Source of the DNA: the human T2T-CHM13v2.0 reference genome, Homo sapiens
Strand: one strand, 5' to 3'
Length of the DNA stretch: 64,000 bases
Assembly (NCBI RefSeq): GCF_009914755.1
Contig: NC_060945.1
In this document: positions 47,325 to 48,766 of the stretch, in pieces
How the letters are laid out: each line of letters starts with the position of its first letter
How positions within the stretch are numbered: position 1 is the first letter of the stretch
Notes under the pieces: model-generated
Told to the model about the DNA's origin: nothing
The model's input: only the letters and a program-made list of their open reading frames with translations
The model's database searches: none
Translations under genes and position numbers: made by a program

Positions 47325-48663
47325 TTTTTGTTTGTTGAGACAGGGTCTTGCTCTGTCGCACTGGCTGGAGTGCAGTGGCGCAACCATGGCTCACTGCAAT
47401 CTCAACCTTTTGGGCTCAAGTAATCCTCCCATCTTGCCTCCCGAGTAGCTGGGACTATAGGCACGTGGCCGCACACCTGGCTTTTTTTTTCCTCCCCCCA
47501 GTTAGAGACAGTGTCTCACTATGCTGCCCAGCAGACTAGTCTCGAACTCCTGTGCTCAAGTGATCCTCCTGTCTTGGCCTCCCAAAGTACTGGAATTATA
47601 GGCATGAGCCACAGTGCCTAACCATTTTTAAGTTTTGTTTTGTTTTGTTTTGTTTTTGAGACAGAGTCTCCCTCTGTCACCCAGGCTGGAGTGCAATGGC
47701 ACCATCTCTGCTCACTGCAACCTCCACCTCCCGGGTTCAAGCAATTCTCCCTGCCTCAGTCTCCCAAGTAGCTGGGATAACAGGCATACGCCACCACGAA
47801 TTTTTGTATTTTTAGTAGAGATGGGGTTTCACCATGTTGGCCAGACTGGTCTCGGCCTCCCGACCTCAGGTGATCAGCCCGCCTCAGCCTCCCAAAGTGC
47901 CAGGATTACAGGTGTGAGCCACCACGTCCAGCCCATTAACTTTCAAGTATTAAAATAAAGTCATACAGGCCAGGTGCAGTGGCTCACACCTGTAATCCCA
48001 GCACTTTGAGAGGCCAAGGCAAGTGGATCAGTTGAGGTCAGGAGTTAAAGACCAGCCTGGCCAACATGGAGAAGCCCCATATCTACTAAAAATACAAAAA
48101 TTTGCCAAGCATGGTGGTAGGCGCGTGTAGTCCCAGCTACTTGGAAGGCTGAGGTAGGAGAATAGCTTGAACCTAGGAAGCGGAGGTTGCAGTGAACCAA
48201 GATCGCACCACTGCACTCAAGCCTGGGCAACAGAGCAAGACTGTCTCAAAAAAATAAATAAAGAAAGAAACAAAGCAGTAAGGAGTACAATACAGTGCAT
48301 AACTGTTCTCAACCTTGACAATGTCAATGTTAGAAATGACAGATGTAAGCACATAAAGGGAAAAGGAAAGGTAAAAAGAAGAGTTGCAGCTGGGCGTGGT
48401 GGCTCACACCTATAATCCCAGCACTCTGGGAGGCTGAGGCAGGTGGATCGCCTGAGGTTGGGAGTTCAAGACCAGCCTGACCAACACAGTAAAACCTCAT
48501 CTCTACTAAAAATACAAAATTAGCCGGGCATGGTGGCGCCTGCCTGTAATCCTAGCTACTCGGGAGGCTGAGACAGAAGAATCACTTGAACCCAGGAGGC
48601 AGAGGTTCAAGCAAGCAGAGATTGCACCATTGCACTCCAGCCTGGGCAACAAGAACGAAACTC
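47325..48663. mobile_element. Alus: 47325-47622 (-), 47632-47933 (-), 47968-48275 (+), 48389-48663 (+, tail-less)
   Basis: The last element ends at ...caacaagaacgaaactc with no cgtctc/poly-A. Confidence 0.93.
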
Positions 48664-48665
48664 AC

Positions 48666-48766
48666 AGAGCTGTGCCATCTTCAGGCTCCAACCTCCAGCT
48701 CACCACAGGGGACTCCTCCTTCATCAGCCTGGCTTGGAGCAGCTGGGCAGACAATGCCAGAAAAAC
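48666..48766 (-). CDS. BAGE2: BAGE coding exon 2 (101 nt), [33 protein letters not shown]+CT
   Basis: Acceptor ctctaacactgccactttctgcatcctattgtag|GTT with a CTAAC branch-like motif; donor CT|GTGAGT; peptide is the BAGE family core. Confidence 0.92.

What the first reader, a model, noticed from the sequence alone, without database searches (positions are those of the whole stretch)
48640..48675. Rearrangement junction appears to create the exon-2 splice donor and an alternative stop
Seen: the Alu at 48389 ends at ...AAGAACGAAACTC without its final bases or tail and runs straight into BAGE exon 2. On the sense strand this reads GCT CT|GTGAGT TTCGTT, so the AGT of a perfect GTGAGT donor is Alu-derived. 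Unspliced, it reads CTG TGA and gives a 39-aa product ending EDGTAL*. Recalled: BAGE1/5 end EDGTALCFIF (CTG TGC...) and BAGE4 ends EDGTAL. Inference: one break inside an Alu replaced the ancestral CFIF tail, created the donor and captured KMT2C exons, a gene birth resolvable to ~48662-48663.
Basis: partly seen in the sequence, partly recalled or inferred. Interest (0 to 1): 0.8.

Follow-up and report, generated by a model that had tools for sequence, protein, structure and literature searches.

The report
Private deletion sharpening BAGE2 splice donor
The junction is real, but it is a later 15-kb deletion found only in this chromosome 21 BAGE2 copy, which happens to improve an already existing weak splice site; it is not the event that first joined BAGE to KMT2C.

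Summary
A plus-strand Alu (48389-48663) stops at ...GAAACTC without its last bases or A-tail and abuts BAGE2 exon 2. On the sense strand this gives CTCT|GTGAGT, and unspliced CTG TGA. The break is exact, and the junction 34-mer occurs once in T2T-CHM13.

It is not the gene-birth junction. Six other full-length BAGE copies (chr13 x3, chr15, chr21, chr22) carry the same Alu, intact as in KMT2C on chr7. In them it lies 13.2-15.6 kb from exon 2, in the same order and orientation. In the copies examined, KMT2C homology runs colinear through that interval. It ends about 870 bp downstream of exon 2, inside a different KMT2C Alu. Fragment copies (chr9, 18, 21, 5qter) and older 5q35 copies continue past that point.

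So the window carries a private, derived deletion of about 15.3 kb with 2-bp microhomology. It changed GTGATT to GTGAGT; only +5G and +6T are surely Alu-derived. It also removed about 870 bp holding candidate distal donors.

The TGA stop predates the KMT2C fusion: 8 of 10 other close copies have it. The CFIF tail is a derived A-to-C change in two chr13 copies. Whether the stronger donor matters functionally is inferred, not shown.

The parts
48389..48663 (+). KMT2C-derived Alu, antisense to BAGE2. It is cut after ...GAAACTC and lacks the last ~6 bases and the A-tail.
   Evidence: The same Alu is intact (…actcCATCTC(A)n gttactg…) in 6 of 6 other BAGE copies holding it and in chr7 (C7:153574635-153574998, 95%).
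48662..48663 (.). Deletion breakpoint. The 2-bp microhomology (TC on plus, GA on sense) is shared by the Alu side and the exon-2 side.
   Evidence: parental sequences...GAAACTC|CATCTC and ...GATGAATC|ACAGAG; the junction 34-mer is unique in the genome.
48660..48665 (-). Exon-2 splice donor GTGAGT. +1/+2 come from the BAGE side, +3/+4 are the microhomology, and +5/+6 come from the Alu.
   Evidence: the hub annotation (exon ends at 48666).
48662..48664 (-). TGA stop used if exon 2 is read through, giving a 39-aa product that ends EDGTAL.
   Evidence: The same TGA is present in 8 of 10 other close copies.
48666..48766 (-). BAGE2 exon 2 (101 nt).
   Evidence: Hub annotation. (acceptor ttgtag|GTTTTT; 98-99% identical in the 10 close copies).
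49823..50080 (-). BAGE2 exon 1. The ATG lies 15 nt before its donor.
   Evidence: Hub annotation and (ORF MAAGV|VFLAL...).
8475..8637 (-). BAGE2 exon 3. It is a KMT2C PHD-like coding exon that BAGE2 reads in the +1 frame (DVHFVSTLEPL...).
   Evidence: the native frame hits PF13771 (E 1e-07); the chr7 counterpart is at C7:153446500.
49214..49215 (.). Junction of a second deletion private to this copy (~431 bp, TT microhomology), in intron 1.
   Evidence: All 10 other close copies keep the segment.

Best explanation
The junction at 48663/48664 is a derived deletion of about 15.3 kb, private to this chr21 BAGE2 copy and made by non-homologous end joining with 2-bp microhomology.

The ancestral full-length BAGE locus already had this order: exons 1-2, then about 870 bp of native downstream sequence, then a KMT2C fragment that begins inside another Alu. 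The deletion fused intron position +4 of exon 2's weak donor (GTGATT) to the 3' end of a KMT2C-derived Alu lying ~14.5 kb into the fragment.

Shown consequences:
- The donor becomes GTGAGT.
- The native ~870 bp is gone, and the original fusion point with it.
- The read-through TGA stop is kept.

Inferred consequence: this copy is committed to splicing exon 2 to the KMT2C PHD exon 40 kb downstream. That exon is read out of frame, giving ...EDGTAL|DVHF.... In undeleted copies the proximal site is poor and stronger-looking distal GT sites compete with it.

The confidence given (0.85) is for the structural claim (derived private deletion, fusion point elsewhere); for the inferred functional consequence I put about 0.5.
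For: 1. Only the window holds 48300-48900 contiguously, and the junction 34-mer occurs once in the genome.

2. Six other loci hold both halves in the same order and orientation. From the coordinates they are 15,342, 15,452, 15,564, 13,211, 15,542 and 15,547 bp apart (my arithmetic).

3. The Alu continues with CATCTC(A)n gttactgattgg in 6 of 6 paralogs and in chr7. I mapped 3 of the 6 intervals. In C13:10.10M, chr7 homology runs colinear at 94-96% for ~14.5 kb, up to L032:5261. C21:7.88M shows the same boundary, as does C22, which lacks a further ~2.4 kb. The missing stretch is therefore KMT2C-derived and its absence is the derived state.

4. From L032:5270 onward the sequence matches the four exon-2-only loci (C9, C18, C5qter, C21:11.7M). 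These loci stay colinear with each other for up to 10 kb past that point, and colinear with 86-87% copies at 5q35.

5. The donor is GTGAGT in 1 of 11 close copies (the window), GTGATT in 8 and GTGCTT in 2.

6. In-register U1 pairing covers 7 of 9 positions for the window site, against 6 of 9 and 5 of 9. The energies are -1.6, +4.6 and +6.9 kcal/mol. Unconstrained duplex energies are -8.1, -4.1 and -2.7.

7. The deleted ~870 bp holds GT sites at +70 and +377 that pair better with U1 (-5.0 and -6.6) than the paralogs' proximal site does.

8. RefSeq (hub table) places the exon-2 end at 48666 and the next exon at 8637. Splicing across gives an open frame through exon 3.
Against: No transcript data were available, so actual use of any donor in any copy is untested here.

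A recalled lead argues against a functional effect. It was not tested by any search. A second 109-aa BAGE cDNA (BAGE3) also joins exon 2 to this exon, and I recall T-P where BAGE2 has T-A. In CHM13 the only copy encoding T-P in exon 3 is C13:13.78M (1 of 11). That copy is undeleted and reads GTGCTT. If the recall is right, the weak site is usable without the deletion, and the improvement may be incidental.

RefSeq now calls BAGE2 a transcribed pseudogene (hub table).

Only one human assembly was examined. No ape genome, GRCh38 or pangenome was available, so the age, fixation and assembly-independence of the junction are not shown.

The primary BAGE papers could not be read.
Confidence: 0.85

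Rival explanations
1. One reading: a single break inside this Alu was the primary event that joined an ancestral BAGE1-type gene to KMT2C, replaced a CFIF tail, created the donor and gave birth to the chimeric gene.
For: The breakpoint and both homologies are as predicted. GTGAGT is absent from all 10 other close copies.
Against: Six paralogs already have the KMT2C fragment downstream of exon 2, with 14.5 kb more of KMT2C-colinear DNA and a different boundary ~870 bp from exon 2. The window differs from those copies by only 1.3-2.9%, against ~5% from chr7, so it shares their fusion. TGA, not TGC, is the state in all 4 pre-fusion-type copies.
Confidence: 0.03
2. The deletion is real but neutral. 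The proximal site was already spliced in undeleted copies, so the Alu-derived +5G/+6T are an incidental improvement with no effect on the isoforms made. BAGE2 would then simply be a decaying pericentromeric copy.
For: A second private deletion (431 bp) shows that this copy accumulates deletions. RefSeq labels it a transcribed pseudogene (hub table). There is also the recalled BAGE3 lead: the T-P exon 3 is found only in an undeleted GTGCTT copy.
Against: U1 complementarity differs by 6.2 to 8.5 kcal/mol in register. From general knowledge of splicing, +5G is among the most conserved donor positions. The deletion also removes the candidate distal donors.
Confidence: 0.4
3. The junction is an assembly artefact: a collapse in the pericentromeric duplications of T2T-CHM13.
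For: The region is duplication-rich. No reads or second assembly could be inspected.
Against: The two joined sequences are not homologous to each other and share only 2 bp, unlike a repeat collapse. The copy differs by 1.3-2.9% from every paralog on both flanks, so its reads should be separable from those of the paralogs. I also recall that the GRCh38 BAGE2 span is similar in length to the CHM13 span, but this was not tested.
Confidence: 0.03
4. The window shows the ancestral arrangement, and the six paralogs gained a 13-15 kb insertion between the Alu and exon 2.
For: The window is about equally distant from all six paralogs, so it could be an early branch.
Against: The supposed insert is colinear with chr7 directly after the Alu's own tail. 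Its other end is colinear with the pre-fusion-type loci directly after exon 2. An insertion would have to recreate both continuities.
Confidence: 0.01

Closest known systems
BAGE family origin by juxtacentromeric reshuffling of an MLL3/KMT2C fragment (Ruault et al. 2003, Genomics 81:391). I saw only its citation and a one-sentence summary in PMC11838408 and reference lists. The paper itself was not held.
   Same: Exons 1-2 come from one duplicon and the downstream exons from KMT2C. Full-length copies lie on acrocentric or pericentromeric chr13/21, and fragments on chr9/18/21.
   Different: The junction examined here is not that fusion. It is a later deletion in one copy that removed the fusion point. 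I found no description of it in the text available to me.
Splice sites contributed by antisense Alu elements (Alu exonization; recalled from general knowledge, no call).
   Same: An antisense Alu supplies bases of a functional-looking 5' splice site.
   Different: No Alu sequence enters the exon. The donor is a hybrid made at a deletion junction. The Alu gives only intron positions +5/+6, and +3/+4 are shared by microhomology.
Microhomology-associated non-homologous deletions in segmental duplications (general knowledge).
   Same: Clean junction, 2-bp microhomology, no filler bases, both parental flanks identifiable in paralogs.
   Different: One breakpoint falls 4 nt into an intron, so the deletion rewrites a splice donor.
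Hominoid chimeric genes born in duplicated regions, such as USP6/TRE2 and POTE-actin (recalled, no call).
   Same: A new promoter and first exons are joined to exons of an older gene. Expression is of the testis/cancer type, as stated for BAGE in PMC3084872 (passages).
   Different: Here the captured KMT2C exon is read out of frame, and the locus is currently annotated as a transcribed pseudogene.

Membership tests
Full-length (KMT2C-chimeric) BAGE locus | BAGE exon 1-2 segment present and highly similar to the other copies | tested here: met
   97-98% identity over 552 bp to six full-length copies; exon 2 is 98-99% identical.
Full-length (KMT2C-chimeric) BAGE locus | KMT2C-derived exons downstream in the same orientation | tested here: met
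   exon 3 is a KMT2C PHD-like exon (PF13771 in its native frame); intron 2 probes map to chr7 at 95-98%.
Full-length (KMT2C-chimeric) BAGE locus | The shared ancestral fusion boundary (KMT2C Alu | native sequence) about 870 bp downstream of exon 2 | tested here: not met
   Searches place it at L032:5269|5270 and L044:1205|1212. The window lacks the whole stretch (one search finds no window match to L032:5270-6137). The feature was lost by deletion rather than never present.
Primary gene-birth (fusion) junction | The two joined sequences are not found already linked in related copies | tested here: not met
   six paralogs hold both sides 13.2-15.6 kb apart, in the same order and orientation.
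Alu exonization | Alu sequence is included in the mature exon | tested here: not met
   The exon ends at 48666 (hub table) and the Alu ends at 48663. The Alu is wholly intronic.
Microhomology-associated end-joining deletion | Both parental flanks identifiable, short microhomology at the junction, no inserted bases | tested here: met
   ...GAAACTC|CATCTC and ...GAATC|ACAGAG give ...GAAACTCACAGAG, with TC shared.
Consensus U1-type 5' splice site (MAG|GTRAGT) | GT at +1/+2, purine at +3, A at +4, G at +5, T at +6 | tested here: met
   GTGAGT. The exon side (TCT) does not match MAG; 7 of 9 positions pair with U1 in register.
Consensus U1-type 5' splice site (MAG|GTRAGT) | Actually used as a donor in RNA | not testable with these tools
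   Only the RefSeq BestRefSeq model in the hub table. No RNA data could be examined.

The most novel reading that the evidence does not exclude
The private deletion is a second, possibly human-specific step in the making of the chimeric BAGE product. By turning GTGATT into GTGAGT and removing the native 870 bp with its competing donors, it made this chr21 copy the only BAGE locus committed to the exon 2 to KMT2C-exon splice, which gives the 109-aa out-of-frame chimera.

In addition, the so-called BAGE fragments on chr9, chr18, chr21 and 5qter are not truncated genes. They preserve the architecture from before the fusion. That would reverse the assumed polarity and trace exons 1-2 to 5q35.
Probability: 0.3. 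Interest if true: 0.45.

Novelty: new member of a known kind. Interest (0 to 1): 0.3.

Why it matters
The analysis corrects an attractive but wrong base-pair-resolved gene-birth story. The BAGE/KMT2C fusion point is elsewhere: about 870 bp downstream of exon 2, inside a different KMT2C Alu, and visible only in the undeleted acrocentric copies that T2T-CHM13 resolves.

It also sets the order of the small BAGE C-termini:
- TGG, with no stop, in the old 5q35 copies.
- TGA, giving EDGTAL*, before the fusion.
- TGC, giving CFIF, in two chr13 copies.

And it gives a clean natural experiment on donor strength: three alleles (GTGAGT, GTGATT, GTGCTT) of one splice site in near-identical paralogs. The practical weight is modest, because BAGE2 is annotated as a transcribed pseudogene and the family's origin is already published in outline.

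Tried and rejected
- **CFIF tail in the window.** There were 0 exact matches. The 2 one-mismatch hits (27700, 30082) are at chance level: expected 0.61, and 10 of 100 shuffles gave 2 or more. The tail is absent from the window.
- **Primary papers.** Ruault 2002, Ruault 2003 and Grunau 2006 were not held. I cannot say whether they already describe a 15-kb deletion in the chr21 copy.
- **Full-text searches.** They gave only secondary mentions. Passages I read in PMC3757347, PMC3084872, PMC11838408, PMC12767296 and bioRxiv 10.1101/2021.07.12.452063 do not treat this junction.
- **Fetching 160 kb of chr7.** Two 20-kb searches were not scored. Two 500-bp probes then gave coordinates only.
- **The chr7 row of the left-flank distance matrix.** Its 26-27% reflects misalignment, so I dropped it.
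- **PolyA signals.** There is no AATAAA or ATTAAA in the 1,042 nt downstream of exon 2 in the C13:10.11M copy. The idea that the deletion removed a proximal polyA site found no support.
- **Alu-Alu recombination as the mechanism.** Rejected, because the exon-2-side breakpoint is not in an Alu.
- It timed out and was redone.

Full report
**The observation**

Searches show a plus-strand Alu starting near 48389 and running to ...GCCTGGGCAACAAGAACGAAACTC at 48663. ACAGAGCTGTGCC... follows directly. On the BAGE2 sense (minus) strand this reads ...GGCACAGCTCT|GTGAGTTTCGTTC.

The hub's RefSeq table ends exon 2 at 48666, so the donor is GTGAGT (48665-48660). Exon 2 read through gives [34 protein letters not shown]. 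With MAAGV from exon 1 that makes 39 residues. Spliced to the next annotated exon (8637-8475), the frame stays open as ...EDGTAL|DVHFVSTLEPL....

**Is the junction a real homology break?**

I searched window 48300-48900 against the window's own genome, T2T-CHM13.
- Only the window holds the 601 bases contiguously.
- Bases 1-364 (to window 48663) match six other loci at 98-99%: C13:10.10M, C15:5.46M, C13:13.82M, C22:11.11M, C21:7.90M and C13:10.87M. They also match C7:153574635-153574998 at 95%.
- Bases 363/364-601 match ten other loci at 96-99%.
- A 34-mer across the junction occurs once in the genome with up to 2 mismatches allowed, and the control pattern gives none.

**It is not the fusion that created the family**

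The six loci matching the left half are the same six that match the right half. The order and orientation are the same, and the halves are 13,211 to 15,564 bp apart (my arithmetic on the coordinates).

In all six, and on chr7, the Alu continues ...GAAACTC CATCTC (A)n GTTACTGATTGG... (7 of 7). I fetched the interval for three of the six.
- In C13:10.10M, chr7 homology runs colinear at 94-96% from the Alu for about 14.5 kb, up to L032:5261.
- From L032:5270 the sequence matches the four loci that have only the exon-2 side: C9:44.2M, C18:15.0M, C5:181.8M and C21:11.7M.
- C21:7.88M shows the same boundary (L044:1205|1212). So does C22, which lacks a further ~2.4 kb of the KMT2C part.

At the boundary, the chr7 sequence is itself an Alu (...GGAGGTTGCAGTAAGCGGAGATCATGCC...). 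The BAGE copies switch after ...CGG to TGGCCATAGAAG..., which is the sequence of the exon-2-only loci. On the sense strand, this true fusion point lies after intron position +872.

**Polarity**

- The exon-2-only loci are colinear with one another for up to 10 kb beyond the fusion point (C9 against C18 and C21:11.7M), and for about 5.8 kb with C5qter.
- They are also colinear with more distant 5q35 copies (86-87%) across it. They therefore keep the pre-fusion arrangement.
- The stretch missing from the window is KMT2C-colinear at one end and native-colinear at the other. Its absence must be a deletion in the window copy.
- The window has no match to L032:5270-6137.
- The window differs from each of the six paralogs by 1.3-1.5% over 1,864 bp on the left flank. 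On the right flank it differs by 2.4-2.9% over 552 bp, and by 4.4-6.2% from the four exon-2-only loci. I dropped the chr7 row of that matrix because it was misaligned.
- The deletion happened after this copy separated from the others. I cannot date it more closely.

**Mechanism of the deletion**

The parental sequences are ...GAAACTC|CATCTC... and ...GATGAATC|ACAGAG..., and the product is ...GAAACTCACAGAG.... Two bases (TC, 48662-48663) are shared and no bases were inserted. The exon-side breakpoint is not in an Alu. This is non-homologous end joining with microhomology, not Alu-Alu recombination.

A second private deletion of ~431 bp, with TT microhomology, lies in intron 1 at 49214|49215. 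All 10 other copies keep that segment.

**What it did to the donor and the stop**

After ...GCTCT the 11 close copies read as follows:

| Sequence after exon 2 | Copies | Which |
|---|---|---|
| GTGAGT | 1 | the window |
| GTGATT | 8 | C13:10.11M, C22, C21:7.88M, C15, and all four exon-2-only loci |
| GTGCTT | 2 | C13:10.86M and C13:13.83M |

Two 5q35 copies at 89% read GTGGCT. This supports four points.
- The TGA after Leu existed before the KMT2C fusion.
- CTG TGC TTC ATC TTC TGA (CFIF) is a derived A-to-C change in two chr13 copies.
- The deletion did not create the stop.
- With a GTGATT parent, +1/+2 come from the BAGE side, +3/+4 are the microhomology, and only +5G and +6T come from the Alu.

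In-register pairing with the U1 5' end (the U1 motif is recalled) covers 7, 6 and 5 of 9 positions. The energies are -1.6, +4.6 and +6.9 kcal/mol. Unconstrained duplex energies are -8.1, -4.1 and -2.7.

The deleted native 870 bp holds GT sites at intron +70 (AGG|GTACCC, -5.0) and +377 (CAG|GTGTGA, -6.6). These were labelled +66 and +376. There is no AATAAA or ATTAAA in the 1,042 nt after exon 2 of the undeleted copy.

**How it most likely works**

Shown: this copy has the only consensus-like donor at the end of exon 2. It has lost every alternative native site downstream.

Inferred: transcripts from this copy are channelled into the exon 2 to exon 3 splice. Exon 3 is a KMT2C PHD-like exon; its native frame hits PF13771 at E 1e-07. 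BAGE reads it in the +1 frame. That frame is open in 11 of 11 copies, chr7 included, and all 11 have identical acceptor and donor flanks.

Against a functional effect stands a recalled, untested lead. A second 109-aa BAGE cDNA also joins exon 2 to this exon. The exon-3 variant I recall for it (T-P) is encoded in CHM13 only by the undeleted GTGCTT copy C13:13.78M. No RNA data could be examined, so the neutral reading remains a serious rival. RefSeq currently labels BAGE2 a transcribed pseudogene.

**Comparison with what is known**

The origin of BAGE by juxtacentromeric reshuffling of an MLL3/KMT2C fragment is in print (Ruault et al. 2003). I saw only citations and a one-sentence summary, because the paper and its 2002 companion are not held.

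Passages I read in a T2T preprint say CHM13 adds KMT2C-like sequence missing from GRCh38. A 2025 preprint reports BAGE2 fragments in gorilla acrocentric amplifications. Neither treats this junction, and three full-text searches turned up nothing on it. I cannot exclude that the unread primary papers describe the chr21 deletion.

**Verdict**

The gene-birth claim, the ancestral-CFIF claim and the created-stop claim do not.

This is a new instance of known kinds of event: an end-joining deletion in a segmental duplication that rewrites a splice donor in a known chimeric family. Interest is modest.

Noticed in passing
window 49214-49215 (compare L010:2054-2486): A second deletion private to this copy: ~431 bp of intron 1 with TT microhomology. 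All 10 other close copies keep the segment.
   Followed up: partly
window 49767-49911: A 20-bp tandem repeat of 7.2 copies. It spans the exon 1/intron 1 border, and its units carry both ATGGCGGC (the start codon) and GTAAG (the exon-1 donor). Copy-number change could therefore shift both the start and the donor.
   Followed up: no
window ~19200-29200: About 84 kb of chr7 is missing here. Window 18701 maps to C7:153456709 and window 29201 to C7:153551098. The gap is shared by all other KMT2C-derived copies listed. The exact junction was not located.
   Followed up: partly
G000 C14:3.54M, C22:6.64M, C21:6.95M: Three further KMT2C-derived duplicons carry the exon-3 homologue and the intron probes. 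None matched the BAGE exon-2 query or the Alu-side query.
   Followed up: no
G000 C5:176.58M, 178.35M, 179.38M and C5:181.84M: The BAGE exon 1-2 segment has copies at 5q35 with 84-86% identity over the 552-bp query, and a 94% copy near 5qter. There are also ~70% matches at many pericentromeric loci. The two 5q35 copies I fetched read TGG instead of the TGA stop and have an in-frame stop earlier in exon 2. This suggests 5q35 as the source of the promoter and first exons.
   Followed up: partly
L046 (C22:11101400-11111399): The chr22 full-length copy lacks a further ~2.4 kb of KMT2C-derived sequence directly next to the fusion boundary. This explains its 13.2-kb spacing.
   Followed up: partly
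L007/L009 (C13:10.86-10.87M): A mosaic copy. Its Alu-side flank is identical to C21:7.90M (0.0%), while its exon-2 flank is nearest C13:10.11M (1.1%) and carries the CFIF change. This suggests exchange or conversion between acrocentric copies.
   Followed up: no
window 49215-49990: Identity to the paralogs drops to 93% here, against 97% just downstream of it. This is the region leading into exon 1.
   Followed up: no
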